A stretch of DNA of 21,697 nucleotides from contig JBMOJK010000017.1 of assembly GCA_049315825.1 (NCBI GenBank), positions 1-21,697 on the forward strand, in the 5' to 3' direction. Positions 128 through 17,396 of this stretch are shown here, one piece after another. The notes beneath the pieces were generated by a model. It was not told the DNA's origin and did not search any database. It saw only the letters and a list, made by a program, of their open reading frames with translations. A program made the translations under genes and the position numbers. The first letter of the stretch is position 1. Each line of letters opens with the position of its first letter. Source of the DNA: Patescibacteria group bacterium. Its GTDB lineage: Bacteria > Patescibacteriota > Gracilibacteria > BD1-5 > UBA2023.

Positions 128-2167
128 ATGGTATTTCGTAAATACCAAAACATTTCAGGCTTTATGTTTCTCCTGTTTACGGTATTTGCATGTGTGTGGT
201 TTATGCTGTATTTCCTGTTTTTTTCAGGAGTACCCGAGGTGAGTTCACTCCTTACGATCACACGAACCAATTTCGTAGCTGGGATCTTCGGCGTATACAG
301 CCTGCTTGGATTTATCTATTTCTTCAATACGAAGCCTACAAAGATCTTCACGCGAGAGGTCTGATATATTGCTATCGCATTTTGTCTGCTGGGGAGTCTG
401 TATATCGGGACGGATTGGATTATTGCAGGGCTTTTTTATGAAGAGTCGAGTCGTGTCTTCCGTGAAATTCCAGGGAAGTTCTTCGTATTGCATATTGGAT
501 TGCATCTGTTGTGCCTGTTTCTGTTTTTCTATTTCTACTTTCGACAACTCACGAAACAAACCTATCTCAATCGGATACGACTCAGAAACATCTTGATGGC
601 TGCGTTCTTCTTGATTGTATTCCTGGTGGTATTCCAGCTTATTCTGCCAGCATTTGGGATATGGATACTGGAGAAAGAAGTGGTGTTTTCACTCACACTC
701 TTTGTCTTGTATATCAACTTCACGATCAATCGATATTACTTCTCTCGAGGATACAACTTGGGTCGTGTGACGATCGCAATCCTTTCTATCGCAATCAGTC
801 TTTTGATCTTCAATCTCATCAAGACCGGATATTTGCCAAAATATAGCAACATACTCACGAGTTATTGGAATATAGCAGATAATTATTCACTGCTTGATCC
901 TGCGCTCGGGATGGTGATATTCTCGGCAGTGAATTTTGTCATGCGCAAACTTTTGCTAGGAAGCGCCTACAAGAAAGAGCTCAAAAATAAAATCCAAGAA
1001 CTCTACAAAAGTATCTCGCATGCTACGACATTTGTTCGACTTAATATGTATACGAGCCGAGGGATTCGCAGACTTTTTAAGACAAATTTTGCTGAAATTA
1101 TCCTATTTCCAGAAGTTGGACAGACGGAACTGCAGCAATTCTTTGAGAATAATCTTCGTGAGAAGATGTTTATCAATGATCTCGTATTTCTTGAGGAGAA
1201 CAAAACAAAGTTCGATACACAGAAAATTCTCGAAGAAATCCCAGAAGAGGCATTTCTCATACTTCCGATCTACAATCGTGAGGAAGATAAATGCCGCGGT
1301 GTGTTGATCCTTGGAATCAAGAAATTTGGAGATTTCTACGATACACAAGAGATCGAGATGCTACAGGATTTCGTGTTTGGACTTGGTTTGTACATCAAAT
1401 ACATCAAAACCTATGCGCAAATCCGCGATCTCTCGATCAATCTCGACAAGCGTGTTGATGAAAAAACGATGGAATACAATCACCTCATCAATCGACAAAA
1501 AGAATTCATTAGCATTATTTCTCACGAGATAAAGTCACCACTTTCTACCGCCATTTTCCAGGCAGATAGCATGCTCGATGATCTAGAAAATGACGAACTT
1601 CCACCCTCTGTCCTCAAGTCTGAGCTCACCCTACTCAATAATCAGCTCATCAAAACAGGAGAGCTCATTTCGACGCTTTTCTCGGTGCAGTATTTCGAAA
1701 CACATTCGGTCTCACTTTTTCGAGAAAATGTGCAAATTAGCTATTTATTACAGACAGAATTTGATATATACTGTCGCGTGCATGAACACATTACGTTCAT
1801 AAACAAGATCAGTAATCAGATTGGATTCGCTTCTATCGACCGTATCCAGCTCCAACAAGTGATCACAAATATCCTAGGAAATGCTGTAAAATTCCTAGAC
1901 AAACAAAAACCCATGATCATGATGGAAGCTCAGAAGATAGACGGATTTCTTCATATTGCGATCGAGGACAACGGGAAGGGTTTTGAGTGAATCGACGCAA
2001 AAAGCCTGTTTGAAAAATACACCACATTCGGTGGCGAATCTTCTGGACTTGGTATGTGACTCTATCTCTGCAAAAAGATTGTAGAAATGCACGACGGAGA
2101 AATCACTGCAGGTGTTTGACAGACACTCGGCTGAGCTCGTTTCACCATTCGTATTCCTGTGCAATAG
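128..2167 (+). CDS. Membrane-bound sensor histidine kinase (multi-TM N-terminus, GAF-like segment, HisKA, HATPase_c)
   Basis: Track ORFs 128..364 and 488..1990 and the tail 1991..2167 share one frame. They are separated only by TGA (362, 1988, 2057, 2117, 2132), and the first real stop is TAG 2165-2167. The N-terminal ~240 aa are hydrophobic. Motifs seen: H-box SHEIKSPL, N-box NILGNAVKF, G1 DNGKGFE[TGA], G2 GLGM[TGA]LYLCKKIVEMHDGEI. The start is uncertain: ATG 128 was chosen, and ATG 68 and ATG 596 are in-frame alternatives. Confidence 0.88.
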
Positions 2168-2183
2168 CACTAAATACCGTGAC

Positions 2184-2912
2184 ATGAATATCCTCATTGT
2201 CGAGGATGATGCATTCCTTGCCGGAAAAATCTGAAAAATATTCGAGTCAAAGGTCATTTCCAATCGAGTACGAGTAATTAACTCGTTTGCGCAATTCATG
2301 CGAGAATCAACAACGCTCGCATCCTATGATATCGTTTTGACAGATCTCAAATTACTCGATGCATCAAAGGAATTGTGTGGCTACAAAGTGATCCGTACCA
2401 TACGAGCACAAAAGCTTACTATCCCCATAGTAGTGATCAGTGGCATGAGCGATATAGATCGACTTCGTGAGGCATTTGACTATGGTGCGAGCGATTATCT
2501 CGTGAAGCCCGTCAGACTCAAAGAGCTTGAGTTGCGAGTTTCAAATTGGTACAAAAACTATCAGCTCTCTAAGCTCACTTCTGCCTGAAAAGGAAATATC
2601 TATCACTACAAAGATCTCAGCTATCATCTCGACAAGAACGAATTCTACTTCAAAGAAACCCACATCCCACTCACAAAAAACAACAAATACATCCTCTCGC
2701 TCTTCTTTACATCTCCCGAAAGTCTTCTCAAAGAATCTTTTCTCATAGAAAAGATCTGGTGAGACCTGTGTGTAAGTGTAGATCGAAACCTGCGCGTGAA
2801 TATTTTGAGATTAAAAAATTCCCTCACCCCATTCGGAATCGATGGATGGATCAGGAATGTTCGTGGCGAAGGATATGTATTTTCTGAGCGGGATGGGACT
2901 CGATTATTCTAG
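2184..2912 (+). CDS. OmpR-family response regulator (receiver plus winged-helix)
   Basis: ATG 2184 lies 16 nt after the kinase stop. In-frame TGA at 2232, 2586 and 2760; stop TAG 2910-2912. The receiver segment reads MNILIVEDD...DIVLTDLKL...VVISG...DYLVKP. The C-terminus LRVNILRLKNSL...VRGEGYVF is the typical OmpR winged-helix tail. Confidence 0.9.
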
Positions 2913-3566
2913 GATGTACCCCTGACCGTAGAGTGTTTTGGGTGAGAATTCTTTGCCGAGTTTTTTGCGCAGTTTTGAGAGGGTGACATTGATGGTATTG
3001 TCACTGATCATCTCGCTGTTCTGTCACCAAGCCTGTGTGATCATCTTTTCTCGACTAATGATACTCCCACGATTCATAAGAAATGTCTCGAACAAAAGAC
3101 TCTCTGTCTTCGTAAGATAGACTTCATGCTCGCCGATGCGAGCTTTTTTTGTGAGCTGATCGAAGATGATATCACCACACTTGATTTCTTTGCTTTCAAC
3201 AAAATTGTTCGGACGTCGGAACATCGCCTTGATGCGAGCAATCAACTCCTCTGGAATGAGGGGTTTGATGATATAGTCGTCTGCTCCGATATCCAGTCCA
3301 TAGATGATATTCTCGCTGTCGCCGTATCCTGACACCATGATGATGGGAACTTGAGACTGGTTATTCTTGCGAAGCCATTTGATGATATCAAATCCACTTC
3401 CGTCGCCGAGCGAGACGTCTACGATATAGAGCTGTGATTCTGCGTTTCCGTTACGCATGAAGTCCTCGTAGCCATAATACGCACTCGCGACGTACCCATT
3501 GCTCTCAAGCTTCTTAATAATTTTGCTTACAAGGAGTTTTTCGTCGTCGATGATTGATATATGCAT
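2904..3566 (-). CDS. OmpR-family response regulator; last gene of the long minus-strand operon
   Basis: Track ORF 3024..3566 continues through TGA (3024-3026) to TAA at 2904-2906. Receiver: MHISIIDDE...YIVDVSLGDGSG...IIMVSG...DYIIKP. Tail: INVTLSKLRKKLGKEF...LYGQGYILE. It overlaps the convergent gene 2184..2912 by 9 nt. Confidence 0.9.
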
Positions 3567-3630
3567 ACGTTAGACAGGCAATAAATTCGACTCAATTATA
3601 GTGAAATTTGAGATTTTACCAGCTCTGCTC

Positions 3631-6003
3631 TTATGATTCATCGGGAAGAACCATGGGGAGCGAGAACGAGAAATTCGATCATTTTCAAGGCGTACTGGTT
3701 ACAACTATTTTCCCTCACATCTGTGTAACAATTTCTTGAGAAATGGCGAGTCAGAGTCCTGTTCCGGTGTGTGATCGAGTAAATACATTGTCGAGTTGGG
3801 AGAATTTTGAGAATATCTTCTTCATACCATCCTCCGATATCCCTATTCCGGTATCGATGACTTCGATCTTGAGTCGATGTGTGCGCGGTATGTGGGATGT
3901 TCGAATCGTAATCGTTCCGCCTGCTTGGGTGAATTTAAAGGCATTTCCGATGAGATTTACGAGCACTTGCTTGAGGAGATTGCGATCTGTGTGGACTATT
4001 CCATCCGTCTCGGCCTCCAGTATCAAATCAAGGCCGTGTGATTTTGATACATTCTCGTACTCGTATTGGAGTTCTGCGAGGAAGACTTGTATTGGTATGT
4101 CCACAGTATCGAACTCCATGCTACGGGATTCGAGTTTTGCGATGTTGAGCATGTCGTTGATGAGTTTGATGAGCCTGTTGCTCGAGTTCAGCATGACGCT
4201 GAGTGGCTTTTGCATCTTGGGTGTAATGCTTCCAAAATCTCCATCGAGTAGCATGGAAGTATACCCCTTGATAGAGGTCAATGGCGTGCGCAGTTCATGG
4301 GATGCAATGTTGATGAAGTCATCCTTGAGAGCATTGAGATCTTCGAGGTGCTTGCGTTCTTTTTCGAGGGAATGATATTCTCGCATATCCATCATCATCC
4401 CAACGCTTCCAGCGCTTCCGAGTGGTATTCCGGTCAGTCGCACGGGGATGATCTCACCGTTCTTAGCAAGGAGTTCTACTTCGTATTCAGATCGTTCTCA
4501 CTGTTGGCGAAGTGTGACGTGATGCTGTATTGCATTCCAGCTTTCTGGTGTAAAGAATTCAAATGATTTCTTCCCAATTGCTTCTTCTGGAGTGTATTGT
4601 GACAGCTCGGTGAACAGACGATTGACTGACATGGTCGTCTCATTGATGTCACCCATCCATATAGCAACCGTCGAATTATCAATGATATCCTTGTATGATT
4701 CGCTGTAGAGTTGGTGAGTAGTGCTGATTTCTTTGTCTTTGTTTTCGATATCGTACTGCAGTGCATGGTTTGCATCCTCGAGTTCTGTCGAGGTGACATT
4801 GACGAGATGGAGAAGTGCTTGGATTGTGTCGATGTATCGACGGTTTTTAGTAGATACAAAGGGTGTTTCAGACTGTGGAGTTTGCCTAATGTAACCAGGA
4901 TGCTCAGTAAGAGTAAGGACAGTCATGGTTTGGTTGAGAAATTCATTCCCGCAATTGCTATGAAAAAATTCCCCATATGTAAAAAAACCACTCGTTGGAG
5001 CAATGCTCTCCAGCGGCTGCATTTCTCGGGCGATGTGTTCTTGTAGAAATCTACGACGCGCCATACAAGAATACACAAAAAATGTCTCTACAGAACAACC
5101 CAGAAATCGTTCATAGATTTTGTGTGATGTATCGAGGATGAGTCTCGCATCTCCGAGTCCGAATTGAACAGTCTCTCACTCACGAATATTTCCTCCAAAA
5201 GTGAGCGATCCATCATCGTGTTTACTTAGCGGACCACGTGCGATCTTTTGGCCATTCTTGAGGATGATGAGTGGGAATTCGTTGCCGATAGCAGGAAGTC
5301 GCTCGGCTGTGTTATTGCCGAGGTATTTTCGATAGATATCTACCGTTGGGATTCCATCTATCTCGTATACGCGGTTACGCACGGATTTTGTGATGGTGAG
5401 TTTCTTTCCGATGCTCATCCAATCAAATGCATAATCTGTTATTGCGGTGATTTCTTTTCCATAAAGCCCCGCAGCCACTATCCCATTTTCGAGAAAAACT
5501 TCTTCAGTAAATACATAGGTTCCTGTAAATGTTCCGTTGTCTCCAGCGAGTCCTCAGGAAACTGTTACATCAGGAAGAATGCTTTCAAATCCTTGTAAAA
5601 GTTCCTCGCCATTTGTGAGAAGTCCCTCTGCAAATATGATCGCAACTTTGAGATCTTTTGCACTCAACGATCGAGCTATACGAGACCCATCTTGTGAGCT
5701 TTGGTCATGAGTGGATTTCGTGTATGTAGTACGTATGTGTGTATGTTCAAATACGCTAAATGTTATCAAAATGCTCGAGCTTTCAACATCCCCCCTTAGG
5801 ATTTCTCAGTCTGTTGTTGTTCCGAGTATTTTTGCGTTGGGAAGGGAAGTGATGAGGTGGGATCGAACGTCTTGGAGTATCGCTGGATCGAGTACACCAG
5901 AAAAAACCTGCACGAGTACATGTTTCTCGTTTTTGAGTCCGTGCTGTTCCTCGAATGCACTGAGTGCATCATGCGAAGAAAATACGTGAGAAATGGTATG
6001 CAT
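3631..6003 (-). CDS. FIST-PAS-HisKA-HATPase sensor histidine kinase (790 aa)
   Basis: Five track ORFs (5806..6003, 5554..5769, 5176..5478, 4498..5076, 3751..4443) share one frame, and every break between them is TGA (5806, 5554, 5176, 4498, 3751). Three more TGAs (3715, 3685, 3679) fall in the tail before TAA 3631-3633. FIST-type motifs: S[TGA]GLAGDNG, FSC..ARR-like YSCMARRRF, GFFTYGEFF. After a PAS-like segment come H-box ASHELRTPL, N-box LIGNAFKF, G1 DTGIGI and G2 GTGL[TGA]LAISQEIVTQM[TGA]GKI...P[TGA]K[TGA]SNFSF. Confidence 0.9.
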
Positions 6004-6011
6004 AAAACAAT

Positions 6012-6521
6012 CTAATGCTCAGGAGTTCCACGGCTGAGGTCTACTGTCACACGGATATTGTGCTGGCAGTTTGGACAATGAGATTCCACTACAAAACAGG
6101 TATTGTTCTGTGGATTTGGAAGAATGGCACAGTGCTCTGCGGTTTCATTGAGGCCAAGGAGCTCGCTGATGAGATCGAGTGCTTGTTTTGGGGTAGTATC
6201 AGCCTTTGTAAGGTAGGAATCTGCTCACATTTTCATGCATTCATCGATCTCAGCTTTGCTGTTGAGGTTAGAGAACATGATGATCTTGGTTTTGAGGGTA
6301 GGCGCAAGTCGGCGTATAGTAGAGAGCGTTTCAATTCCATCCATCGAAGGCATCATGATATCCATCAAGATTACATCAGGTGTAAACTCGGTAATATCTG
6401 TGATTGCTGTGATTCCGTTTGTACAGATTTCTACTTCAAATCCTGCGGCTTCGAACTTTGTTCTGTACATTGCTGAGAGTGCTTCGTCGTCCTCGACGAG
6501 CATGATCCTTTTCTTGTTCAT
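6012..6521 (-). CDS. Single-domain response regulator (receiver) with a Cys-containing C-terminal tail
   Basis: ATG 6521; TGA at 6225 falls in the canonical M[G]ADSYLTKA; stop TAG 6012-6014. Phospho-acceptor context VILMDIMMP. The tail reads HCAILPNPQNNTCFVVESHCPNCQHNIRVTV. The stop lies 8 nt before the FIST kinase start. Confidence 0.88.
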
Positions 6522-6548
6522 GATACAAAAGAAATGAATGCGTTCGTA

Positions 6549-7040
6549 TTAGGAGGTGACTGATTCGATGTGTATTGTGGAAGCAAATTGTGTGCCGCAA
6601 CAGGGGCAGGTTATATTGCTATGTGGTTCTTTGATGGGCTTGTATTCAGTATTTGATTCACTCATAGTTATGAGATCATGCACGCGGGCGAATATTTTTC
6701 CTGGAGTGTTTTCAGCTTTGATGATATATCCGTCAGCTCAGAGACTCATGCACCGCTCTACATGCTCAGTTCCGCTGAGATTGCTAAATACAAGAATTTT
6801 AGTCTGTACCGATGGTGCAAGTTTTCGCATGACCCGAAGCGTTTCGAAGCCGTCCATCTGCGGCATCATGATATCCAGCAAGATAACACTCGGATGAAAA
6901 CCATCAAGCATCGTCACTGCTTCGAGTCCATTCGTGCAGGTGAGAACCTCGTATCCTTCACGGACAAATTTCTCACTATAGAGATCTAAGAGTACCTGCT
7001 GATCTTCTACGATCATAATCTTGTATTTTTGATCTGTCAT
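6549..7040 (-). CDS. Single-domain response regulator (receiver) with a CPCC tail; paralog of 6012..6521
   Basis: ATG 7040 (the track's TTG at 7052 is an alternative). TGA at 6738 falls in L[G]ADGYIIKA; stop TAA 6549-6551. Phospho-acceptor context VILLDIMMP. The tail NITCPCCGTQFASTIHIE aligns with the CPNC tail of the neighbouring gene. Confidence 0.88.
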
Positions 7041-7098
7041 GCAAGGAGGCAAAAGTGTATATATTGCATATTACTCTTCTTTTTTTCGACATGCAAGG

Positions 7099-9822
7099 TT
7101 AGCATTTTTTCCGGATTGCATCGGTATTTACCCAAGATGGTCGAATGTATGGACTATTGATGATATCTCTGATGGAAGTGCCGTCCATTTCGCGATAATC
7201 GAGGAGTGCCTTGGCATCAATGTGGCGGTATTTGATTAATTCATTAGGATTTTTTCCTAATTCGAGCATTTTTTCTTGAAAATCATTGATCATTGAATTT
7301 ATAGATGTTTCAAAGAAACCTTCAAAAAGTCATTCTAATTGACTTCCGGATTCGCCTGAAAGTATCTTGTCTCCAATCTGTAAGAATGTCAGTATTTCAG
7401 TTACATTCCACTCAAATACATCGTGATTTCGGAAGCTTGCTGCGATGAATCTACGCAAGAATGCTTCGTATTGGAAAAATGTAGTTGCTGCAGCTTCTTC
7501 GATTGGTACTACTACCATGCCATCCTGAACGTGCTCATGGAGTACATCTTCGGACATAAAAGGCGCGATCTCTATGAATGCTGATAGGAAAGTATTGGTC
7601 TTTGGATTATAAATCAATCGAGTACGAACCTTGTCAGGGAACTGCTTTGTGAGCTTGTGGAGTTCTTTGACGCGCGGTATGCCGGTGTATGATGCATGGA
7701 CTCATTCTTCGAGAAATGCTGCCCCTGGTGACGAAAAATTCGCAACAAAAGAGTGAAGATTGTTGTAGAAATCTTCCGATGAAAGATGCGAAGTCGACCG
7801 GATACCCAGCTGAAAATCTGCAAATCTTAAAAGCGGACTCGACGGATTGAATGAAGAAAAATCCGACACATAAATTCGCCCAAAGAACTTGTGAAAAAAT
7901 TTATGAAAGTCTCGTTTAATGAGATCGGTGAGAAGTTTTACGATCTCTCATGCGTGCAGGGTGATGTACTCTTGTGCTGCAGGATGAATATTCTCCATAT
8001 TCTCGTTTGAGAACATGAGTGTGTGGTCGAGGAACATCGAAGACTTTGCAACTGCCTTTGTTGGATCGAGAACCAGATGTTCAAGTGCGTACAGGAGTCG
8101 ACTATATACCGTCGGTATATTTATATTCTTGTAGATGAGAATCGTCTCTTGTACAAAAAGCATGAGTGCTTCGTCCGGAATGTGCTCCGTTTCTGGGAGT
8201 GTCTTGAGCGTATGATAAAGATCAAAATATACCGCATTTCCTACTCCGTATATAATCGTATCAGTGTGGTGCAATGCTTCATAGAGCTCACCCATGAGAG
8301 CTCCAATGCCAGGGCCAAGCTCACGAACAATATGGAGTCGATTTCCTTCTCGTGCACGCATATGAATACCATGTGTTCGGATGAGTTCGGCAATATTCTT
8401 AACGCCTGCAAGCTTCGATGACTCTAGATTTCATCGATCTACTTTCCAGTCGGGATAGATATTGAGTGCAAGGTTTCCGGAGTGATCGTATGCTTTGAGA
8501 ATATCAGGCGACTGATTATTGGGAAAGCTTTGCACGTGATTTCTTCTTTGTGCTTTATCGAGCAGGATGGCAGCCTGTTCTCATACGGATGCTTGAAGGT
8601 CTTGTATGGCAAAATTATACGCATCTGCCTTTTGTATATCAGTATTGCGTTCTTTGAGTCGATGAGCAAGTCTTACTTCGGATTCTGCTGATTCACGTAA
8701 ACTTCGTGCAAATGCGAGAAGTGCAAACGTAAAAAACTCCCGCCCGAGCCCCTTTGGATGATCTTCGCGCGGATCAAAGTGACGCAAAATATTGATGATA
8801 TCCTCGCTGTATCCAGCTACGAGTTTGAGCGTGAGGGGAGAGAGTTTTTCTTGGATTTCTGCTGCGTCTTTTTGGAGATCAAGCTCGAAATGTGGCTGTA
8901 TCGCGAGTATGCGACCGTTGCGTATTCCAGATGCAACAATCCCACCCGTGATGTCATCGGTCATCAGTGGGATGATCGATGGATGCGGACGCTTGTTGGT
9001 CGAAAGATCGATCGTTACAATATGACGTGTACGTGTTTGTGGAACTGAGAGTTTCACTGCTTCTCCTGGTCGACTATTTCCGCTAATTCCGCGGAAAATA
9101 TCCTGATAGATCTTTGGTGCAGTGGTGTCGATTTTGAGAGTAGTTGGAAAATACCCATACTGTGCAGGTCACTGAATTGCCATTGCGATGCGGGGGTCTT
9201 CAGCATTGGCCATTCCAATCAGATTCACTCAAACTTGTTGACTGAAACATATGAACATGTGTCTCACATTTCCTCCTTCGCCCGGTGCAGTTGCTGCGGC
9301 GCGTACACTCTGAGCAAAAGCTCCACGATAGTAGCTCGTTGGCACTTTGTCAGGATCTGATAAGCTTCCCCCAGATATGATGATCCCTTTATCTGGATAA
9401 TCATTCATCTCAGGAGTGGGATCTTCGTAGTTCACTCGCGTAACAGAGACATATTCCTCATATGTTTTTTGATCTCAGAATACGTCTATGAGCGCGCGCT
9501 CCAGCAGATCATTCGTAAAACAGCCGTCTCGTTGAAGTGAAATCGGCAATACACCGTTGTAGAGCTTCTTGAGATGTTCGAGTTCTTGGATGAGATCATG
9601 ACGCGCGAACTCTAGATTGAGATCTGTGCAGTGTCAGAGATTGTCAGGAAGGGGAGTGCCAATAAGTTCTACTTTTCAACTCATTCGTGAGCTTTTTTCC
9701 ACTGCTGCTGATACTGCGCCTTGGATAATAGGCGTCACTAAACCAAGCGTCCCTGCGTATTCCGGATCTGATGAGGGATTGCTTTTTCCGACAAAGGGAA
9801 ATATAGGAGGAACGGTCAGCAT
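7099..9822 (-). CDS. Large (907 aa) multidomain protein of unknown function. The N-terminal region has class-I glutamine-amidotransferase-like motifs, and there is a central GxGxG Rossmann/MTase-like motif.
   Basis: Track ORFs 9229..9435, 8581..9057, 7948..8361, 7330..7617 and 7099..7293 are all in one frame. I walked every gap codon by codon, and the only interruptions are TGA (9676, 9634, 9475, 9229, 9169, 8581, 8431, 7948, 7702, 7330). ATG 9820-9822 directly abuts the TAG (9823-9825) of the upstream kinase; stop TAA 7099-7101. GATase1-like motifs: GIIISGGSLSDPD, HMFICFSQQVGVNLIG (putative nucleophile Cys), AIQPHFE (His-Glu). Later comes HIVRELGPGIGALMGEL. The functional assignment is tentative. 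Confidence 0.8.
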
Positions 9823-10950
9823 CTATATTTTTCGTAAAGTATCGAGTGTAAATGAGAACTCACTTCCTTCGCCTACAGTGGATTTCACGTCTAACTTTCC
9901 TCCAGTTCGGGCTATAATGATGCTTGAAATATAGAGTCCAAGTCCCGTGCCTGCTGTGCTTTTTTGGAGATAATTATCTACCTGACCAAACTTTTCGAAG
10001 ATACTTTCGAGGTTCTTTTCTGGTATCCCGATCCCCGTGTCTCGAACGAATATGCGGACTCTATTTTGGGCTTCAACGGTTGCTCCGAGTGTGATTGTTC
10101 CACCCTTTGGAGTGAATTTGAATGCATTTCCAAGAAGATTGATGATCACTTGTTTGAGCTTCCCAGGGTCAGCGATGATGCGTGTATCGGCCGAAGGAGG
10201 GTCTATTTGGAAGACGAGTCATCTTCCTTCGGGGATTGGCTTCATAGTTTCTGCTATTTCGCAGAGCAGTTCTGAAACGCTGATGTCTTGTGGATTAAAT
10301 CGCATAGCTTCTGCATCGAGCTTCGCAACATCGAGCATGTCGCCAACGAGCGCGATAAGTCGCTCGGCTTCGTTGTAGGCAATCGTGATGTATCGCTGCG
10401 CGGTTGGAGTGAGTTCACCAACATCTCCATCGAGTACCATAGAGAGATACCCCTTGATACTCGTGAGCGGAGTTCGAAGTTCATGACCCATTACAGAGAC
10501 GAAGTCATCCTTCATACGATTGAGTCGATCGAGCTTTTCGGCATGTTCTCGGATCGCCTTAATCTCGCGAAGGTCGGTGATGATCCCGGCGGTTCCGCCA
10601 TTGCCAAGAGGAGTTCCACTGAGAAATACTGGGATAAGTTCGCCAGTCTTGCTCTTGAGCATTCATTTATACTTCGAAGATTCGCCTGCATTGCGAAGCT
10701 TGTTGTTATTGCGAACGGTATTTGCACTTTCCTCATCCCAGAAAATATACGACTCCAAACCTATGATCTCATCGAGTTCATAGCCCACCATTCTGCAGAA
10801 ATTCGGATTTGCATAAACGGTTCGTTCGTGCTCATCTCCGATCCAAATACTCTCCGACATCGCATCGAGTATTGGGCGATATCAGATCTTCTCAAGGAAT
10901 GCTTTGGATTCTCGATGATAATCGGCAAGGTTTTCAGCTGGACTCGACAT
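9823..10950 (-). CDS. Cytoplasmic PAS-HisKA-HATPase histidine kinase (375 aa); first gene of the operon
   Basis: Track ORFs 10663..10860, 10219..10662 and 9823..10149 share one frame and are joined by TGA (10882, 10663, 10219). ATG 10948-10950 is preceded by an in-frame TAA (10960-10962); stop TAG 9823-9825. No hydrophobic N-terminus. Motifs: H-box MGHELRTPL, N-box LLGNAFKF, G1 DTGIGI, G2 GTGLGLYIS. Confidence 0.9.
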
Positions 10951-11329
10951 GTACGCTAGTTACGTTCTATCTACGCCAGTATATAGAACATACAGGGAGA
11001 TACAATGGGAAGGGGAAAATCGCGAAACCCGCTTAGTGGAAGGAATTGATTGCTGGATATGCAAATACAATAAATGCAGTCCAAAGTGTGTACACTGGGA
11101 AATATCGGCTGATCCACTGCATAGTATTTGTGAGCGGAGATTGGTGAATGAGAGTCTTTGTGTGCTGATGAAGAATGCCCACAATGTGTACAAATACGAG
11201 TATATTCATCCCGAGAACTGCTGCATGCAACTTTGAGAGTACAGAAGATAATTGCATTCCACAAAGAAGTAAGCATGTGCTATTTTGCTCCAGACCCACA
11301 AGCTTCTTTTGTAAATACTGCGTATGTAA

Positions 11330-11360: not shown

Positions 11361-12677
11361 ATGAAGATATTTTCTCGATTGATCGCTGTGTTTTTGATGT
11401 GAGCAATGCTGACTCAATCAGTCTGAGCGACATTTCCAGATGTTGAGCACTCATGGTATAAATCCTCGATCAATCATCTTGCAGACGCGGGAATTATTCG
11501 TGGGTATGACGATGGAAATTTTGGACCCGAATCACTCGTGACGCGTGCTGAAGTACTCAAGATGGTGATGAATATAGCAAAGATCGAAATCTCTCAGGGA
11601 TCATCGGCTCAGTGCTTCCCAGATGTGGATGTGACAGCATGGTACAGTCCGTATATCTGTACAGCAAATTCTCTCGGGATCGCGAAGGGTTTTAGCTCTG
11701 GGAAATTCTGACCAAACGAGACAGTAACCACTCTCGAAGCACTTACTTTTGGATTGCGAGCATTCAGACTTGCACCAGAGCAGAGTGGGGTTCATTGGTA
11801 CGATGCATATCAAAAGCTCGCGGACGACTTCAATATCATCAAGACACACGAATACACACTTTCTACCAAGATTTCTCGCGGGAAAACCGCAGAGCTCATC
11901 GAACGTATCGCAGCGTACAATGCTTCGAAAGCAAAGCTGGATTTCAAAAGCGCCGGATGCCGCACACCCGGTTCGCTTCTGAAACAAAATCTCATCAAGA
12001 TAAATGGAATCAACCGCGAATACAACCTCGCAGTTCCGAGTTCGTATTCCAAAACACAAACCTATCGACTCATCGTTGCTATCCATGGCCGAACCAATAC
12101 CAATGATATGGTTCAGGGTTATATGGGCTTGGACAGTTCTCGTCGAGGCATGCAAACCGACTCTATCGTCGCGTATCCTGCCGGGATATCTGTGAAGGGT
12201 GGATTTTCGTGGAGCGAATATTCCAATGTTCAATTCTTCGATGCGATGATCGATCAAATCGCGAGTAACTACTGTATCGACCGCAATCAAATAGATATCG
12301 TCGGACACTCGCTCGGTGGCTGGTTCGCTAACAAACTTGCCTGTTTGCGTGGTGATGTTATCCGAGGGGCGGTTGTAGTAGGTGGACCTTCGTACTCTGG
12401 AGAATGCACCGGACCAGTTGCTACCTTACTCATGCACAAAGCGGATGATGCACTTGTCCCGTATTCATGAGGGAAAGCTGCAGAAGTATTTCACAAATCA
12501 GTAAATCAATGCTCGGATAAATCTCACGATATCACCGTTGCATGATATGCAGGACGACAATGGGATGGCTGCACACCAGGCAATCCAGTTCTGTGGTTCG
12601 AGAAATACACCACCTTCCAAAACGATCCCCACAGCTGGCCGAAGTCAGGTGGAGCTGCGGTGTTGGAGTTTTTTAGG
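11361..12677 (+). CDS. Secreted esterase with two SLH domains (PHB-depolymerase / LpqC-type alpha/beta hydrolase)
   Basis: ATG 11361. In-frame TGA at 11400, 11424, 11709, 12468 and 12543; stop TAG 12675-12677. It absorbs track ORF 11754..12470. Signal-peptide-like MKIFSRLIAVFLMGAMLTQSVGA. Two SLH repeats: FPDVEHSWYKSSINHLADAGIIRGYDDGNFGPESLVTRAE and FPDVDVTAWYSPYICTANSLGIAKGFSSGKF. Esterase core: REYNLAVPSSY...RLIVAIHG and nucleophile elbow GHSLGG. Confidence 0.88.
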
Positions 12678-12829
12678 GGGTTGTAGAGGGGTAACTAAGA
12701 AACTACAAAGAGTGAAGTTCGGATAAGGAAGTAGTGGGGATAGCTCGGTATACTAGGATTCTCTATGTATTATCGTAAGTAACGCATAGAAGTTGTCGAC
12801 CAACTTTTCAATTATCAAGATGGTAATCA

Positions 12830-13552
12830 TTACTTTGTAAAGTATTGCATGACAAGGGGGATTCATATTGAACATAACAAAACACTGCCAAGAAAAAAAT
12901 TTCTTGTAGACCGTCTAAGAGAAACCATTCTCTTATACCCTCCAATATCTATGTCCAAATTGGAGAGGAATAATTTGCGTATGGGTATAAGCAAGACAAG
13001 AATGAGTATAACCCATGCAAAAACTTTTATGAACGGCTCAGGAATGCTACTATTAAGAACAATCAACGGTATTGCTGCTAATATTGGAATGAAAAGATGG
13101 TATCAGCAATGAAGAAGCATGCTCTCTAATACGTCGGCTTTCATTTTTCCAAGCTCGGTTTTCAATTCACTTTCCAGAACTTTCGTTTCCTTTGTACTGC
13201 TGGACTTGATTACATACTTTCCAGAAACTGGATGAAATGAAAACCATAGTGAATCTATAAATCCACTATCAAAAATTACTGTAAGAACCTCATCACGCAG
13301 ATAATCTCAATTTTTCTGAAAGCAACTTATCTTGAGTGCTACTATTCGTTCATCTCATTCGTTATCATATTCAGATAGTTCTCTGAAATCTTCAAATATT
13401 ATCGAATCGTTGTTTTTCAGTGTTGCAATTAGCTGAATACTTGGAAACTTTTTTGAGAGATAATTTGCAAAACTCTTACTTTTGCTTGGATCTATGCTCT
13501 CTTCTGTGATACAAATCGCCATTTTTATCCATTTTGTTGCCTCGTATTGCAT
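12830..13552 (-). CDS. Hypothetical protein with C-terminal transmembrane helices (240 aa)
   Basis: Track ORFs 13355..13552 and 12863..13066 share a frame. They are joined through TGA at 13355, 13307, 13103 and 12863; stop TAA 12830-12832; ATG 13550-13552. The C-terminal third is hydrophobic (HLFIPILAAIPLIVL, FAWVILILVLLIPI). No recognisable domain. Confidence 0.6.
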
Positions 13553-13602
13553 ATTTTAGATGATTTGTTATCTGATGATTAGTGCGGTATTATCTCGTAA
13601 GC

Positions 13603-13932
13603 TTATTGCTTACTTTTGTTGAGGTAAAAATCACTTGTGGTTTCTTTCGCAATAGAGATGAAGGATTGATTTATTTTTCCATAATTTGCCAAAATCTGTG
13701 AACCACCGATTAGTATCGCCACAACAATGAAAACCCAGATCGTAATTTGAACCCAAAATCGCTCCTGTATCCAATAGACATTCTTGGTCAAATAGTTGCC
13801 GATCGCGAGCATGCAGAATACTGAAAGACATACACAGAACCAAAATAGAACCGTAAAAATAGCCCATACTGCAAGTCCTAGAAGTATCATGCCTCAAATT
13901 ACTTTATCTTGCTTACTAAATCGTTTTGCCAT
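13603..13932 (-). CDS. Small integral membrane protein (109 aa)
   Basis: Track ORF 13603..13890 extends upstream through TGA (13894-13896) to ATG 13930-13932, giving MAKRFSKQDKVI[G]GMILLGLAVW.... It has three hydrophobic stretches. Stop TAA 13603-13605. Confidence 0.6.
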
Positions 13933-14079
13933 AGGTTGGTAAAATAAGACTTCTTTTAAGAAGAGTAGTCGCTGTTGTTGAATTGTCCAATACCATGCAC
14001 AAAAAATCCTCGTAGTTTTCGGGGATTTTCGTTTAAAAAGGTCTGAGTAAGCTGTAAAGAAGTGCTCAGTGAATATTCG

Positions 14080-14105
14080 AATAAACGATATTGAGATCGT
14101 TTATT
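14080..14105 (+). terminator. Hairpin with T-rich tail (terminator-like)
   Basis: AATAAACGAT (14080-14089), loop ATTGAG, ATCGTTTATT (14096-14105), followed by TTAGC. The stem is a perfect 10 bp. No clear upstream plus-strand gene, so it may end a small RNA. Confidence 0.35.
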
Positions 14106-14157
14106 TTAGCGAGTTTGAGATATATCATTATGATAATCTGTGCATTTCTGAGTGTAC

Positions 14158-14352
14158 ATGGAGTACTTTAATGTAGCTTCTGTTTACATTACTGAAGTAA
14201 GTAATTCGGAACCAGTGATCCAATATGTATATACTGGAGTTGTTAACGAGTCTGTAGTACTTGATGTCAATTCGTGTTCGACTGGAGATTCGAACCGCGA
14301 GGTAGTCGGTTTTTTGTCTTTGTATTGAGGAAAACAACAAAAAACGACCTAA
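14158..14352 (+). CDS. Possible small ORF (64 aa), function unknown
   Basis: Runs from ATG 14158 to TAA 14350-14352 with one in-frame TGA. It is absent from the track because the TGA shortens it below the cutoff. It ends inside the 14341-14377 hairpin. Composition looks beta-rich and protein-like (VIQYVYTGVVNESVVLDV). No homology recognised. Confidence 0.25.
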
Positions 14353-14377
14353 AGAAATTTAATTCATAGGTCGTTTT
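14341..14377. terminator. Perfect 11-bp inverted repeat with A-run and T-run arms (bidirectional terminator-like)
   Basis: AAAACGACCTA (14341-14351), 15-nt loop, TAGGTCGTTTT (14367-14377). Confidence 0.45.
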
Positions 14378-14612
14378 GGAAAGATTTTCGGGATTTTTTA
14401 TAGCGACTTTGTCGCTTTGGGATCAATTGAATGGTGGTGTTCGTCGGGAGTATTTTGAACACTTGATTTCCACGGTTCAAGAACTCGATTTTGGCTTAAT
14501 GAAGCAATTTGTACGGTATGCCTGGTTTGATCTTGGAGGTTCTGAGAATTTCAAGATCGCACTAACAAAGAAGGAAAGGGTGTGGTATGGGATTGAGGAA
14601 TTAATATGATAA
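14376..14612 (+). CDS. Possible small ORF or gene fragment (78 aa), function unknown
   Basis: Track ORF 14376..14609 (TTG start) reads through TGA 14607 to TAA 14610-14612. It has no ATG near its 5' end and no recognisable domain. It is bracketed by two strong hairpins. Confidence 0.2.
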
Positions 14613-14626
14613 GCACATATCAATAA

Positions 14627-14668
14627 GTTAAAAAATACAAGGAATTACTGATCCTTGTATTTTTTAAC
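14627..14668. terminator. Bidirectional rho-independent terminator (perfect 17-bp stem)
   Basis: GTTAAAAAATACAAGGA (14627-14643), 8-nt loop, TCCTTGTATTTTTTAAC (14652-14668). The A-run and T-run give a U-tail on both strands. It lies 16 nt beyond the TAG (14684) that closes the extended Gre-like frame. Confidence 0.75.
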
Positions 14669-14683
14669 TGTTAGTTTCTGTCT

Positions 14684-15154
14684 CTAGAAAGTTAATCCCA
14701 TCTCAATTGAGATTATTTCCACTTCCACCTCTTTTCAATTTAAATTCATATGAACAATCTCGCCTTCTTCTTTTTATAGTAGGGGGCGTATTAATGGTGC
14801 ATTGTACGATACACGTCATTCAATTGGCGACTGATATCATCCAATGATATATGTTGTATCTTCTCATCCATCAATGGAGATGGTAACCTTTTTTCACATA
14901 CTTACTATCGATTCATCGGAAACAACCCGAACAATTTGAGTTCCGTTCAAGATATCCTGTACTTCTTTTAATTTCTTTGAAGCAAGTTCTCAGGAAAGTC
15001 TTGCTGCATCAAGTGGTGCATTATCGTGCCAAGTTTCTGAAGACTGCTTCAAGGCCTCTCAGGCATCTTTTCCAGCCTCCTTAAATTGCTCTCATAACAA
15101 GGCTTGTTTTTCTTGAAAAGCACTAAATTCATCGGGAAATAGTCGGTATTTCAT
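14684..15154 (-). pseudogene. GreA/GreB/Rnk-family factor interrupted by an in-frame TAA (126-aa product as written; 156 aa if the TAA is read through)
   Basis: ATG 15152-15154. Eight in-frame TGAs in total. The sequence SSETWHDNAPLDAA resembles the Gre GDxSENAEYxAA motif. The C-terminal domain reads VSMGKKVTISIDGGEDTTYIIGGYQSPIEGRVSYNAPLIRPLL, then TAA (14774-14776). The same frame continues as KEEGEIVHMNLNGKEVEVEIISIE, which matches the canonical Gre tail (compare E. coli GreA ...[28 protein letters not shown]), ending at TAG 14684-14686. Confidence 0.7.
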
Positions 15155-15235
15155 AAGTATGTTTATGATAAAGAGATAAAAAAGTTTCCAATGGAAGAAC
15201 AGATTGTGTATTCTGATTTTGAATGCACAAAACTA

Positions 15236-16084
15236 CTATAAACTGACCTGTTTTTTGTTCTTTTTGTACACGAATGTTATAAAACCTTCGATACAGGATC
15301 AATTACCAAAATGACTACAGCTCTCACATAATCACGGAAGATAAACCTGTTCTATATGCTTAACCGTAAATTCTTTATTTGAGGGCGTTTCATAAATAAA
15401 TCGAGTACTGGATGTTCAGGGGGTGTGTATAGTGCTTTTTAATCTAGCATTATAAATTGATAGCAATCTTCTAATAGCTTCCGCTGAATTTGTTTTGTTT
15501 AATAGGTCATCCAATATACGAGTTTCAACTCATTTTGATAAAGCCCAATCAAGGACCTCTTGAACACGTCCTATATCTTCAGTATCGGATAATACACAGT
15601 TTACTCTCACCTTAACGCCCGCTTGTTGCAATGAGGATATATTTTCTTTGGCTTGTATGATTTGTTCAGATGCCCATTCGCGTGACTTTCTTTTTGCCAT
15701 CATTCCTTGTAGGAATTCAGGATTTACGGATTGTAATGAAAAGTTGATAGCATCTACTCAAGCATCAATCAAATTTGAACGAATATCCCCATTAAACTGT
15801 CCATTACTTGTAACTTTTACAACCATCCCCAATTTTTTGGATCATTCTACAATTGAAGAGATGTGTTTATTTAAAGTAGGTTCTCATCCAGTAAGATGTA
15901 ATTCGGTTACGCCAAGTTCATCTCGAAGTCTTGATAATGCAGATTTCAACTCGGAATCCCATTTTAAAATTCCAGCGTCAATATCTCATTCATTGTGACA
16001 AAACTTACAAGACCAATTACAGGACTCTGTAATTTTTAGACGTACTGTTCATACATCTTCTATTTTTGAGAACTTGCTTGTCAT
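15236..16084 (-). CDS. Radical SAM enzyme, MoaA-like (282 aa)
   Basis: This gene is invisible in the standard-code track because it contains nine in-frame TGAs. It runs from ATG 16082-16084 to TAG 15236-15238. Motifs: CxxxCxxC as ITESCNWSCKFCHNEG (15998-16021); LHLTG[TGA]EPTL (TGA at 15884-15886); VTSNG; INFSLQSVNPEF; VKVRVNCVLSD; C-terminal Cys cluster LCESCSHFGNGSC. The order and wording of motifs resemble MoaA (GTP 3',8-cyclase) more than viperin. Confidence 0.82.
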
Positions 16085-16641: not shown

Positions 16642-16654
16642 AGTCTTTTAATTA

Positions 16655-17206: not shown

Positions 17207-17396
17207 TTTTTTTTAACAGTGTTAGTTGATAGACTGAACTCAGTTTCTTATTAAATATTGAAGGCATTTCGTCGAGAATCTTGTTTAACTCTCCTTTAAG
17301 TGAGCCTTGAAGGGATTGAATTCTATTTTGTTCTGCCTCAATTTTTAATAACCTATCACGTTGAGCCTTCTAACTCATAGCATTACCAGTCCCCAT
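17207..17396 (-). pseudogene. Coiled-coil gene remnant with an in-frame TAG
   Basis: The frame reads ATG 17396, MGTGNAMS, TAG (17370-17372), then KAQRDRLLKIEAEQNRIQSLQGSLKGELNKILDEMPSIFNKK. No start codon follows the TAG until an internal Met. The frame then runs into the kinase gene out of phase. The 3' boundary is arbitrary. Confidence 0.25.

What the first reader, a model, noticed from the sequence alone, without database searches (positions are those of the whole stretch)
2904..10950. Eight-kb operon packing two kinases, three regulators and a 907-aa enzyme-like protein
All six genes are on the minus strand. The intergenic gaps are 0, 58, 27, 8 and 64 nt, in this order: PAS kinase, 907-aa protein, REC, REC, FIST-PAS kinase, OmpR regulator. 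Neither kinase has an obvious membrane anchor.

CPR bacteria have small genomes with sparse regulation. Devoting about 8 kb to a branched cytoplasmic phosphorelay built around an unknown enzyme is therefore unusual, and a further kinase/regulator pair sits at 128-2912. The ATG of the 907-aa gene (9820-9822) abuts the TAG of the PAS kinase (9823-9825), which suggests translational coupling and stoichiometric co-production.

The architecture suggests a signalling module in which the large protein is either the regulated output or the generator of the ligand sensed by the FIST domain.
Basis: partly seen in the sequence, partly recalled or inferred. Interest (0 to 1): 0.7.

Follow-up and report, generated by a model that had tools for sequence, protein, structure and literature searches.

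The report
Kinase-partnered enzyme in a sensor-gene cluster
The six genes are real, but they form two separately inherited sensing modules placed side by side, and the unknown 907-aa protein belongs to a rare, undescribed enzyme family that repeatedly sits next to one type of sensor kinase in Gracilibacteria.

Summary
Six minus-strand genes, with gaps of 0/58/27/8/64 nt, encode a PAS kinase, a 907-aa protein, two stand-alone receivers, a FIST-PAS kinase and an OmpR regulator.

The reading as one branched relay built around the enzyme is only partly supported. The closest relative found keeps receiver-FIST kinase-OmpR at the same place. In place of PAS kinase-907aa-receiver it has a membrane-protein gene, of which this window keeps only a relic (11036-11281).

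The 907-aa protein is not an orphan. An exhaustive search found 35 representative clusters, apparently all from TGA-recoded lineages. A confident AlphaFold model of a 31%-identical member shows a class-I glutamine amidotransferase domain whose Cys-His-Glu triad is conserved, followed by a Rossmann domain that looks like a methyltransferase. The methyltransferase call is weak.

Family members lie next to a PAS kinase of this subtype in eight loci, usually with a stand-alone receiver, and three of those pairs have touching or overlapping start and stop codons.

My best reading is a kinase/receiver/enzyme signalling trio, inserted beside a NosP-like FIST kinase module. Which way the signal flows, and what the enzyme acts on, are unknown.

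The parts
9823..10950 (-). PAS sensor histidine kinase (PASHK, 375 aa): PAS, HisKA, HATPase_c. Soluble; phospho-His at residue 156.
   Evidence: Pfam. No membrane segment. Orthologues at 48-55% identity in other Gracilibacteria. Paralogue of the C-terminal half of FISTHK (44% identity).
7099..9822 (-). P907 (907 aa, 10 in-frame TGA=Gly). Member of an undescribed family: class-I glutamine amidotransferase domain plus a Rossmann/methyltransferase-like domain.
   Evidence: No Pfam, NCBIfam, PDB or PADLOC hit on its own. Full-length homologues at 27-31% identity, E 1e-91 to 1e-123. 35 representative clusters found.
8800..9552 (-). P907 residues about 91-341: class-I glutamine amidotransferase-like domain. 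Predicted triad Cys192 (9247-9249), His311 (8890-8892), Glu313 (8884-8886).
   Evidence: Family member P0132 passes the Pfam PF00117 cut-off (36.2 bits against 22.8). Foldseek top PDB hits are PabA, TrpG, CarA and CTP-synthase glutaminase domains, E 1.5e-6, TM up to 0.71 normalised to the target. Cys in 20 of 21, His in 20 of 21 and Glu in 21 of 21 aligned members. Coordinates mapped.
7486..8430 (-). P907 residues about 465-779: Rossmann, methyltransferase-like domain. Motif I ExGxGxG (G503-G507 = 8302-8316), a helical insert (about 532-649), and near-invariant RSTSH (675-679) and GVHxSYxxxPRxxE (707-720).
   Evidence: Strand/helix order in the AlphaFold model of P0132 follows the order known for class-I methyltransferases (my reading). 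At least 12 of the top 50 BFVD Foldseek hits are methyltransferases, all weak (E 1e-3 to 0.5, probability up to 0.92). hhalign aligns only motif I, probability 6%. Conservation. The fold call is tentative.
6549..7040 (-). REC1 (163 aa): stand-alone receiver with a short Cys/His-containing tail (CPCC).
   Evidence: Pfam Response_reg, E 1e-22. 40% identical to REC2. 35-47% identical to the receivers next to PASHK orthologues. Acceptor Asp, Ser and Lys present.
6012..6521 (-). REC2 (169 aa): stand-alone receiver with a four-Cys tail (C-x11-C-x6-CPNC).
   Evidence: Pfam Response_reg, E 2e-23, and a weak Cys_rich_CPXG hit. Orthologue at 64% identity, with the same Cys pattern, in L001 directly upstream of the FIST kinase.
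3631..6003 (-). FIST_N-FIST_C-PAS-HisKA-HATPase_c kinase (FISTHK, 790 aa), soluble.
   Evidence: Pfam. No membrane segment. 67% identical orthologue in L001.
2904..3566 (-). OmpR/PhoB-type response regulator (220 aa): REC plus winged-helix Trans_reg_C.
   Evidence: Pfam. 65% identical orthologue at the same position in L001.
128..2912 (+). Convergent membrane histidine kinase (128-2167) and OmpR-type regulator (2184-2912). The regulator's 3' end overlaps the 3' end of the OmpR gene by 9 nt.
   Evidence: Pfam. Several hydrophobic segments. Orthologues at 67% and 79% identity in L001.
11036..11281 (-). Relic of the last 90 or so codons of a 421-aa multi-pass membrane protein gene. The gene is intact in L001, where it occupies the place of PASHK-P907-REC1.
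   Evidence: tblastn 48% identity, E 9e-23. The frame is still open. Intact L001 gene at 8149-9411.

Best explanation
The 8-kb string is two paralogous two-component modules lying head to tail, probably transcribed together.

Module A is REC2, the FIST-PAS kinase and OmpR (2904-6521). It is the conserved core. It is a NosP-type sensor fused to its kinase, with a DNA-binding regulator as output.

Module B is the PAS kinase, P907 and REC1 (6549-10950). It is a three-gene cassette that is present or absent between close relatives. It recurs, with shuffled gene order, in other Gracilibacteria.

Shown: P907 belongs to a rare family of roughly 850-1150-aa proteins. The family has a class-I glutamine amidotransferase domain with a conserved Cys-His-Glu triad, followed by a second Rossmann domain.

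Tentative: the second domain has the glycine-rich motif and strand order of SAM-dependent methyltransferases.

Inferred mechanism: the soluble PAS kinase senses an intracellular cue and phosphorylates the stand-alone receiver REC1. REC1 has no output domain, so the kinase/receiver pair acts on the one conserved non-signalling partner, the P907 enzyme. P907 is probably held in a stoichiometric complex with the kinase, as the abutting or overlapping genes suggest. The output would be a switch in an amide-hydrolysing, and possibly methyl-transferring, activity rather than transcription.

The two kinases share an almost identical first DHp helix, so cross-talk between modules A and B is possible but untested.
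For: Gene structure, genetic code and domains.

Module boundary:
- L001 keeps HK0-RR0 / OmpR-FISTHK-REC2 / SLH-esterase in order, at 64-84% identity.
- In place of module B it has a 421-aa membrane-protein gene.
- The window retains that gene's 3' relic.

Paralogy: PASHK and the FISTHK C-terminal half are 44% identical; REC1 and REC2 are 40% identical.

P907 family: full-length homologues and 35 clusters in an exhaustive search.

Linkage with the kinase:
- Starting from PASHK orthologues, a P907 homologue lies within 10 kb in 5 of 6 distinct contexts. It is directly adjacent in four (L005, L007, L008, L009) and 7 kb away in L003/L004.
- Starting from P907 relatives, which is an unbiased direction, 3 of 5 loci have a PAS kinase as immediate neighbour: L011, L012 and L015. 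The background kinase frequency in Gracilibacteria is about 0.4 per 100 genes (PMC10805038).
- A stand-alone receiver is adjacent to the pair in the window, L005, L007, L008 and L011, and lies 1.4 kb from the P907 homologue in L009.
- Start and stop codons abut or overlap in the window (0-nt gap), L012 (17-nt overlap) and L007 (20-nt overlap).

Fold:
- AlphaFold model of P0132: pLDDT 86.8, pTM 0.86.
- PDB Foldseek hits are all class-I amidotransferases.
- Pfam GATase is above its cut-off for P0132.
- The triad is conserved.

DHp helix 1: identical at the phospho-His and the next 12 residues (20 of its first 22) between the two kinases.

No terminator-like site or hairpin lies in the intergenic gaps.
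Against: - The direction of information flow is not shown.
- P907 is adjacent to the kinase more often than to the receiver, and L012 has kinase plus P907 with no receiver within 8 kb. Both fit an upstream accessory role at least as well as an output role.
- L014 has a family member with no two-component gene nearby.
- L006 and L010 have the kinase and receiver without P907.
- The methyltransferase assignment is weak. There is no Pfam, NCBIfam or PDB sequence hit, hhalign gives 6%, and only low-probability viral Foldseek hits were found.
- P907 itself departs from the family consensus at the nucleophile elbow (FICFS instead of GICFG), at QPHFE (QFHPE) and at the end of beta-2 (Asn for Asp). 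It may have altered or reduced activity.
- Co-transcription was not measured.
- Only 22 kb of the L001 genome was seen, so module B could lie elsewhere in that genome.
Confidence: 0.5

Rival explanations
1. P907 acts upstream of the kinase. It would be an accessory sensor or modifying enzyme bound to the PAS kinase, in the way NosP or H-NOX proteins control partner kinases. Alternatively it would work as CheD and CheR do when they deamidate and methylate chemoreceptors. It would set kinase activity according to glutamine or SAM supply, or by covalently modifying the kinase or receiver. REC1 would then be the real output or a phosphate sink.
For: - P907-family genes are adjacent to the kinase gene in all eight linked loci, but adjacent to the receiver in only two (the window and L011).
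- Start and stop codons touch or overlap with the kinase gene in three loci.
- L012 and L015 show a kinase plus P907 with no receiver in view.
- Accessory sensor proteins encoded beside their kinase are an established pattern for NosP (PMC12570481).
- A hydrolase for glutamine amides fused to a methyltransferase-like domain parallels the CheD/CheB and CheR chemistry (established knowledge of chemotaxis adaptation).
Against: - There is no sequence or profile similarity to CheR, CheD or NosP.
- Class-I amidotransferase domains normally act on free glutamine or gamma-glutamyl compounds, not on protein side chains.
- The kinase already has its own PAS sensor.
- The methyltransferase fold is not firmly established.
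Confidence: 0.27
2. All six genes form one integrated, branched cytoplasmic phosphorelay built around P907. P907 is either the common regulated output or the producer of the ligand sensed by the FIST domain.
For: - Same strand, short gaps, and no terminator-like sites or hairpins in the gaps.
- The two kinases have nearly identical DHp helix 1 and the two receivers are paralogues, so phosphotransfer could cross between them.
Against: - The closest relative has the FIST module intact without PASHK, P907 or REC1 at that site.
- P907 relatives are never seen with a FIST protein in the eleven other loci examined.
- There is no Hpt domain.
- Characterised FIST (NosP) domains sense NO through haem, which a glutamine amidohydrolase would not supply.
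Confidence: 0.13
3. The adjacency has no functional meaning. P907 is a metabolic enzyme that happens to lie among signalling genes.
For: - L014 has a family member with no signalling neighbour.
- L006 and L010 have the kinase and receiver alone.
Against: - The kinase/P907 neighbourhood recurs in genomes ranging from 25% to 60% GC. P907 identity among them is only 24-32%, and gene order and orientation are rearranged.
- With kinases at about 0.4 per 100 genes, three of five unbiased loci having a kinase as immediate neighbour is far beyond chance. This is my own estimate from the figure in PMC10805038.
Confidence: 0.07

Closest known systems
NosP-NahK/NosK-NosR signalling (FIST-domain nitric oxide sensor, partner histidine kinase, response regulator)
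   Same: Module A has complete FIST_N and FIST_C domains (E 4e-39 and 8e-27), a soluble kinase with no membrane anchor, and adjacent response regulators. This matches NosP operons as described in PMC12570481.
   Different: Here FIST is fused to the kinase through a PAS domain instead of being a separate protein. The regulators are a stand-alone receiver with a Cys-rich tail and an OmpR-type DNA binder, not c-di-GMP enzymes. Haem binding and NO sensing were not tested. No solved FIST structure matched by sequence.
Class-I (triad) glutamine amidotransferases: TrpG/PabA, GuaA N-terminal domain, CarA, CTP synthase glutaminase domain; also gamma-glutamyl peptidase GGP1
   Same: The N-terminal domain of the P907 family has the same fold (Foldseek E 1.5e-6, TM 0.70-0.71 to TrpG). 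It also has the GGS...GxCxGxQ...HxE signature, a conserved Cys-His-Glu triad and a TrpG-like DxCFTN motif at strand 1.
   Different: It is fused to a non-canonical partner domain, not to any known ammonia-accepting synthase. P907 itself does not reach any Pfam or NCBIfam model and has FICFS / QPHFE variants. The genomic partners are signalling proteins, not a biosynthetic pathway.
Chemotaxis adaptation enzymes CheR (glutamate methyltransferase), CheD and CheB (glutamine deamidase / methylesterase) encoded with CheA and CheY
   Same: The gene set is analogous: a histidine kinase, a stand-alone CheY-like receiver, and a protein predicted to combine amide hydrolysis with a methyltransferase-like domain.
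   Different: There is no homology to CheR, CheD or CheB (no Pfam hits). No CheA, CheW or MCP genes are in view. The hydrolase fold differs from CheD and CheB. This is a functional analogy only.
Two-component systems with single-domain response regulators that act by protein-protein contact (CheY-FliM, DivK-DivL)
   Same: REC1 and its orthologues have no output domain, so they must act on another protein. P907 is the only conserved candidate encoded nearby.
   Different: No interaction has been shown, and the putative target is a large enzyme of unknown activity.

Membership tests
Two-component histidine kinase (HisKA family) | HisKA dimerisation/phosphoacceptor domain with the H-box His, plus an HATPase_c catalytic domain with its G boxes | tested here: met
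   PASHK: HisKA 1.9e-18, HATPase_c 1.2e-26. FISTHK: 2.2e-17 and 3.2e-29. H-box HELRTP is present. The G2 box is intact once TGA is read as Gly.
Response regulator receiver | REC fold with acidic pocket, phospho-acceptor Asp, and conserved Ser/Thr and Lys | tested here: met
   Pfam Response_reg, E 1e-19 to 2e-23, for REC1, REC2 and OmpR. The residues are visible in the alignment.
His-Asp-His-Asp phosphorelay | An Hpt (or Spo0B-like) phosphotransfer protein or domain between two receivers | tested here: not met
   No Hpt hit in any of the eight proteins at E<=0.01. The C-terminal helical bundle of P907 has no conserved His.
NosP-type FIST sensor | FIST_N plus FIST_C domains | tested here: met
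   PF08495 4.1e-39, PF10442 8.4e-27.
NosP-type FIST sensor | Haem binding and an NO-dependent effect on the kinase | not testable with these tools
   This is a biochemical property (PMC12570481).
Class-I glutamine amidotransferase (PF00117) | Profile match above the curated cut-off | tested here: inconclusive
   P907 itself has no hit even at E<=10. Its 31%-identical full-length homologue P0132 scores 36.2 bits against a cut-off of 22.8. Pfam GATase was hit by 4 of 22 database members and by 2 of the 4 sequences in the first alignment (P907 plus three homologues).
Class-I glutamine amidotransferase (PF00117) | Flavodoxin-like fold with the nucleophile elbow Cys and a His-x-Glu dyad | tested here: met
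   Foldseek against PDB returns only class-I amidotransferases (and homoserine O-acyltransferases) at the top. Cys192, His311 and Glu313 are conserved in 20-21 of 21 members, P907 included. The model is of a homologue, not of P907.
Class-I glutamine amidotransferase (PF00117) | Glutamine hydrolysis coupled to an ammonia-accepting synthase domain | not testable with these tools
   No known acceptor domain was recognised. Enzymology is needed.
Class-I SAM-dependent methyltransferase | Motif I (D/E)xGxGxG and an acidic residue at the end of strand 2 | tested here: met
   The acidic-xGxGxG motif is present in all aligned members, reading W as a mistranslated Gly in entries translated with code 4. 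Asp at the end of strand 2 occurs in 23 of 26 members; P907 has Asn.
Class-I SAM-dependent methyltransferase | Seven-stranded Rossmann-like fold recognised by profile or structure comparison | tested here: inconclusive
   There are no Pfam, NCBIfam or PDB sequence hits. hhalign to two local methyltransferases aligns motif I only, probability 6%. BFVD Foldseek gives many methyltransferase hits, but weak ones (E 1e-3 to 0.5, probability <=0.92). The strand order in the model is compatible. The domain could not be searched on its own.
CheR / CheD / CheB adaptation enzymes | Homology to PF01739/PF03705 (CheR), PF03975 (CheD) or PF01339 (CheB) | tested here: not met
   No such hits for P907 or 25 relatives.
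Anti-phage defence systems (PADLOC) | Match to a defence-system protein model | tested here: not met
   No hit for P907, P0132 or P0147.

The most novel reading that the evidence does not exclude
The PAS kinase, the stand-alone receiver and the P907-family protein form a minimal, receptor-free analogue of a chemosensory adaptation circuit. P907 would deamidate glutamine side chains with its triad domain and methylate the resulting carboxylates with its Rossmann domain. The target would be the soluble kinase or the receiver, giving a two-component system covalent memory. Alternatively, P907 is an amidotransferase with a methyltransferase-fold acceptor domain that makes a new small signalling molecule under kinase control. 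Either would be a signalling enzyme class not described before, apparently confined to bacteria that read TGA as glycine.
Probability: 0.12. Interest if true: 0.85.

Novelty: new variant of a known kind. Interest (0 to 1): 0.55.

Why it matters
Gracilibacteria have tiny genomes and few sensor kinases, so whatever they keep wired to a kinase is likely to matter for their host-dependent life.

This analysis turns an apparent orphan into a definable family. There are 35 database clusters, a confident structural model and a short list of near-invariant residues. The family has a reproducible genomic partner, a PAS kinase with a stand-alone receiver.

That gives a concrete and cheap set of experiments: glutaminase assays, SAM binding, phosphotransfer, and pull-downs. 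These could uncover a non-transcriptional output or a feedback enzyme for a two-component system.

It also exposes a practical trap. Most database copies of this family are translated with the wrong code or are split into fragments, and word-indexed searches miss the family entirely.

Tried and rejected
- Table-11 ORF calling gives only fragments.
- TAG or TAA as sense codons give no gain in ORF length. TGA=Trp is rejected because the TGAs sit at invariant Gly positions.
- P907 alone has no hit against Pfam, NCBIfam, PDB sequences or PADLOC.
- The word-indexed search of 5.8 billion clusters found nothing, either with P907 or with a four-member alignment. That would wrongly have suggested an orphan.
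- Pattern scans for P907 relatives found none in GTDB genomes or in JGI metagenomes.
- A TGA-free fragment (residues 465-624) folded alone gave pLDDT 44 and was discarded.
- hhalign of the C-terminal domain against methyltransferases from fetched loci aligned motif I only.
- The PDB fold search of the whole model was saturated by amidotransferase hits, so the second domain could not be assessed there.
- Promoter and terminator scans and hairpin folding of the gaps were at background.
- Rfam and tRNA scans of the window found nothing.
- I considered that L011 shows the family in a standard-code organism. I rejected this because none of its eight genes uses TGA as a stop either.
- Literature searches found no description of this family.

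Full report
**1. The observation**

Read with the standard bacterial code, the region is a mosaic of short ORFs. Allowing TGA as a sense codon produces six long minus-strand ORFs between 2904 and 10959. Allowing TAG or TAA does not help.

The eight two-component genes of the window contain 32 in-frame TGAs. All sit at positions where these families have conserved glycine: the HATPase G2 box GTGL[G]L, the G3 box, the receiver [G]AD.Y..K motif and the OmpR W[G] motif.

Taking the first ATG supported by homologue alignments, the genes are:
- PASHK 9823-10950
- P907 7099-9822
- REC1 6549-7040
- REC2 6012-6521
- FISTHK 3631-6003
- OmpR 2904-3566

The gaps are 0/58/27/8/64 nt, and the P907 ATG touches the kinase TAG. 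Neither minus-strand kinase has a hydrophobic segment, whereas the plus-strand kinase at 128-2167 has several.

**2. One operon?**

No minus-strand terminator-like site lies in any of the intergenic gaps. Terminator-like and promoter-like matches in the region are at the level of shuffled sequence, and the gaps contain no hairpin that beats shuffles. This is compatible with co-transcription but does not prove it.

**3. Synteny splits the string in two**

A scan of GTDB representative genomes with FISTHK found one close relative: L001, a 1.27-Mb chromosome of an uncultured bacterium. Its proteins are 64-84% identical to those of the window.

It keeps the following in the same order and orientation: the membrane kinase, its regulator, OmpR, FISTHK, REC2 and the SLH-domain esterase. 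Between REC2 and the esterase gene, however, it has a single 421-aa multi-pass membrane protein gene instead of REC1, P907 and PASHK.

The window still carries the last 90 or so codons of that membrane-protein gene at 11036-11281, immediately upstream of PASHK (48% identity, E 9e-23). So REC1-P907-PASHK (6549-10950) is a discrete cassette that differs between close relatives, while REC2-FISTHK-OmpR is the conserved core.

Only 22 kb of L001 was available. The cassette could exist elsewhere in that genome.

**4. The two modules are paralogous**

- PASHK is 44% identical to the PAS-HisKA-HATPase half of FISTHK, and REC1 is 40% identical to REC2.
- The phospho-His and the next 12 residues of DHp helix 1 are identical in the two kinases. 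Cross-phosphorylation is therefore conceivable.
- PASHK has closer relatives elsewhere, at 48-55% identity. These are roughly 365-395-aa proteins, one of them labelled Candidatus Gracilibacteria.

**5. P907 is not an orphan**

On its own, P907 matched nothing:
- Pfam and NCBIfam, even at E<=10
- PDB sequences
- PADLOC
- the word-indexed search of 5.8 billion clusters
- GTDB and JGI pattern scans

The break came from looking at the neighbourhoods of PASHK orthologues and translating them with code 25. Full-length P907 homologues (27-31% identity, E 1e-91 to 1e-123) lie:
- directly upstream of the kinase in L005, L007 and L009
- convergent and adjacent in L008
- 7 kb downstream in L003/L004

Only the L006/L010 type lacks one within 10 kb.

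An exhaustive HMMER search with the best-conserved TGA-free fragment (residues 708-830) then found 35 representative clusters among 1.84 billion. About 15 of them are full length, at 844-1142 aa. Many are translated with code 4 and carry W where the family has Gly, which marks them as coming from TGA-recoded organisms.

**6. Linkage, tested from the P907 side**

I looked up five of these relatives, chosen without regard to kinases:
- L012: a PAS-PAS kinase overlaps the start of the P907 homologue by 17 nt, in the same order as in the window.
- L011: a multi-PAS kinase is divergent from the homologue, and a stand-alone receiver converges on its end.
- L015: a PAS kinase is divergent from it.
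- L014: no signalling neighbour.
- L013: too short to judge.

The PAS domain of the L011 kinase is visibly of the same subtype as those of PASHK and FISTHK.

Gracilibacteria carry about 0.4 kinases per 100 genes (PMC10805038). By my estimate, a kinase as immediate neighbour in three of five loci is far beyond chance.

The neighbourhood persists across genomes of 25-60% GC, with rearranged order and orientation. That is the classic signature of functional coupling.

L011 shows neither sense nor stop TGAs in eight genes, so its code is undetermined.

**7. What P907 is**

An alignment of 22 database members gave a confident AlphaFold model of P0132 (pLDDT 86.8, pTM 0.86). P0132 is 31% identical to P907 over 795 residues (E 8e-89).

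*N-terminal domain.* Every top Foldseek hit against the PDB is a class-I glutamine amidotransferase domain (PabA, TrpG, CarA, GuaA, CTP synthase) or the related homoserine O-acyltransferase fold. The best E-value is 1.5e-6, and TM reaches 0.71 normalised to TrpG. P0132 passes the Pfam GATase cut-off, and PF00117 was hit by 4 of those 22 members and by 2 of the 4 sequences in the first alignment. A family profile finds gamma-glutamyl peptidase 1, GuaA and HisH in the PDB at marginal E-values. Cys192, His311 and Glu313 of P907 are conserved in 20-21 of 21 aligned members. So are the GGS and DxCFTN motifs.

*C-terminal half.* It has no sequence-level match anywhere. In the model it runs strand-helix-strand, then a helical insert, then strand-helix-strand-helix and a terminal hairpin. 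This is the order known for class-I methyltransferases. That reading is mine and was not checked by superposition. The domain carries an acidic-xGxGxG motif and usually an Asp at the end of strand 2.

In the viral structure library, at least a dozen of the top 50 hits are methyltransferases from different families: FtsJ-like, FkbM, macrocin O-MT, VP39 and the methyltransferase domains of L proteins. All are weak, with E 1e-3 to 0.5 and probability up to 0.92. hhalign against two genuine methyltransferases from fetched loci aligned motif I only (probability 6%).

I therefore call the second domain 'Rossmann, methyltransferase-like' and treat SAM use as a hypothesis. Near-invariant RSTSH, GVHxSYxxxPRxxE and a C-terminal WxNxxxxR mark the family.

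P907 itself is a divergent member: FICFS for GICFG, QPHFE for QFHPE, and Asn for Asp at strand 2.

**8. Mechanism**

Shown:
- two modules
- a conserved kinase/P907/receiver neighbourhood
- an amidotransferase-type catalytic triad
- no Hpt domain
- no membrane anchor

Inferred: the stand-alone receiver needs a protein target, and P907 is the only conserved non-signalling gene in the neighbourhood. The abutting or overlapping genes suggest a stoichiometric kinase-P907 complex. I therefore favour a trio in which the PAS kinase, through REC1, switches the enzyme.

The alternative is that P907 works upstream, as a metabolite-sensing or kinase-modifying accessory protein. It is nearly as likely, because P907 tracks the kinase gene more closely than the receiver gene, and L012 lacks a nearby receiver.

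The combination of 'glutamine-amide hydrolase plus methyltransferase-like domain next to a kinase and a CheY-like receiver' recalls CheD/CheB and CheR. This is an analogy only, as no homology was found.

**9. The FIST module**

FIST domains characterised so far are NosP proteins. They bind haem, sense nitric oxide and control an adjacent kinase (PMC12570481). FISTHK is a fused version, with an OmpR-type regulator as its probable transcriptional output.

Nothing links P907 to FIST. The FIST module stands alone in L001, and no P907-family locus examined has a FIST protein.

**10. Assessment**

The individual signalling proteins are ordinary members of known families. Three things are new:
- P907 is recognised as a member of an unmodelled, lineage-restricted family that fuses an amidotransferase to a Rossmann domain.
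- The family has a reproducible partnership with one PAS-kinase subfamily and a stand-alone receiver.

No description of the family was found in the paper library. I rate it a new variant of a known kind, of moderate interest, with a low-probability but high-value reading as a new type of two-component adaptation or output enzyme.

Noticed in passing
window 11036-11281 (- strand): Relic of the C-terminal 90 or so codons of a 421-aa multi-pass membrane protein. The gene is intact in the relative L001 (8149-9411). The frame is still open and could encode a two-helix mini-protein or be a decaying pseudogene. The intact L001 protein has no Pfam hit.
   Followed up: partly
window 12500-18500: GC drops from 0.44-0.47 to 0.32-0.36, and synteny with L001 ends at the SLH gene. 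The stretch carries a tight minus-strand trio of radical-SAM (15236-16084), CYTH (16060-16641) and thymidylate-kinase-like (16655-17206) genes, plus several ORFs without any Pfam hit. It may be an acquired island or a nucleotide-modifying system.
   Followed up: no
window 6012-6140 and 6549-6640 (C-terminal tails of REC2 and REC1): Both stand-alone receivers end in Cys-rich tails. REC2 has C-x11-C-x6-CPNC, conserved in its L001 orthologue, and gives a weak Cys_rich_CPXG hit. REC1 has CPCC. This suggests a small zinc-binding module on a receiver. The tail is absent from the 121-127-aa receivers in L003, L005 and L011.
   Followed up: partly
window 2904-2912: The convergent regulator genes RR0 (+) and OmpR (-) overlap by 9 nt at their 3' ends. 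No terminator-like hairpin lies between them.
   Followed up: partly
window 11361-12686 (+): A secreted protein with two SLH domains plus an alpha/beta-hydrolase (esterase-like) domain. It is 84% identical in L001 and is the most conserved gene of the shared block. SLH anchoring is noteworthy in a CPR-type cell envelope.
   Followed up: no
database proteins P0124, P0125, P0134, P0137, P0150-P0155 and others: Most public copies of the P907 family are translated with code 4, giving W at conserved Gly positions (for example ILWWSL, WICFWQQ, RDWWAWDWT), or are split into fragments by table-11 gene calling (L007, L009). The word-indexed homology search missed the family completely, although the exhaustive search found 35 clusters.
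   Followed up: yes
L011 1-11563: A 60%-GC contig in which eight genes have no in-frame TGA and also never use TGA as a stop; all stops are TAA or TAG. The genetic code cannot be assigned. A tyrosine recombinase gene lies next to the kinase/P907/receiver trio.
   Followed up: partly
L003 11203-13146 and 16172-17923; L004 8145-10088 and 10641-14708; L008 2015-6346: In one subgroup of loci the receiver-PAS kinase pair is flanked by a large LRR protein and a giant PKD/LTD/SNase-domain protein. This hints at a link between this kinase subfamily and surface or nuclease functions.
   Followed up: no
P0134 (1129 aa), alignment: One family member has lost the catalytic Cys and His (AIWAWSQ, LNFNPE) but keeps the C-terminal motifs. 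The C-terminal domain can therefore be retained without an active amidotransferase site.
   Followed up: no
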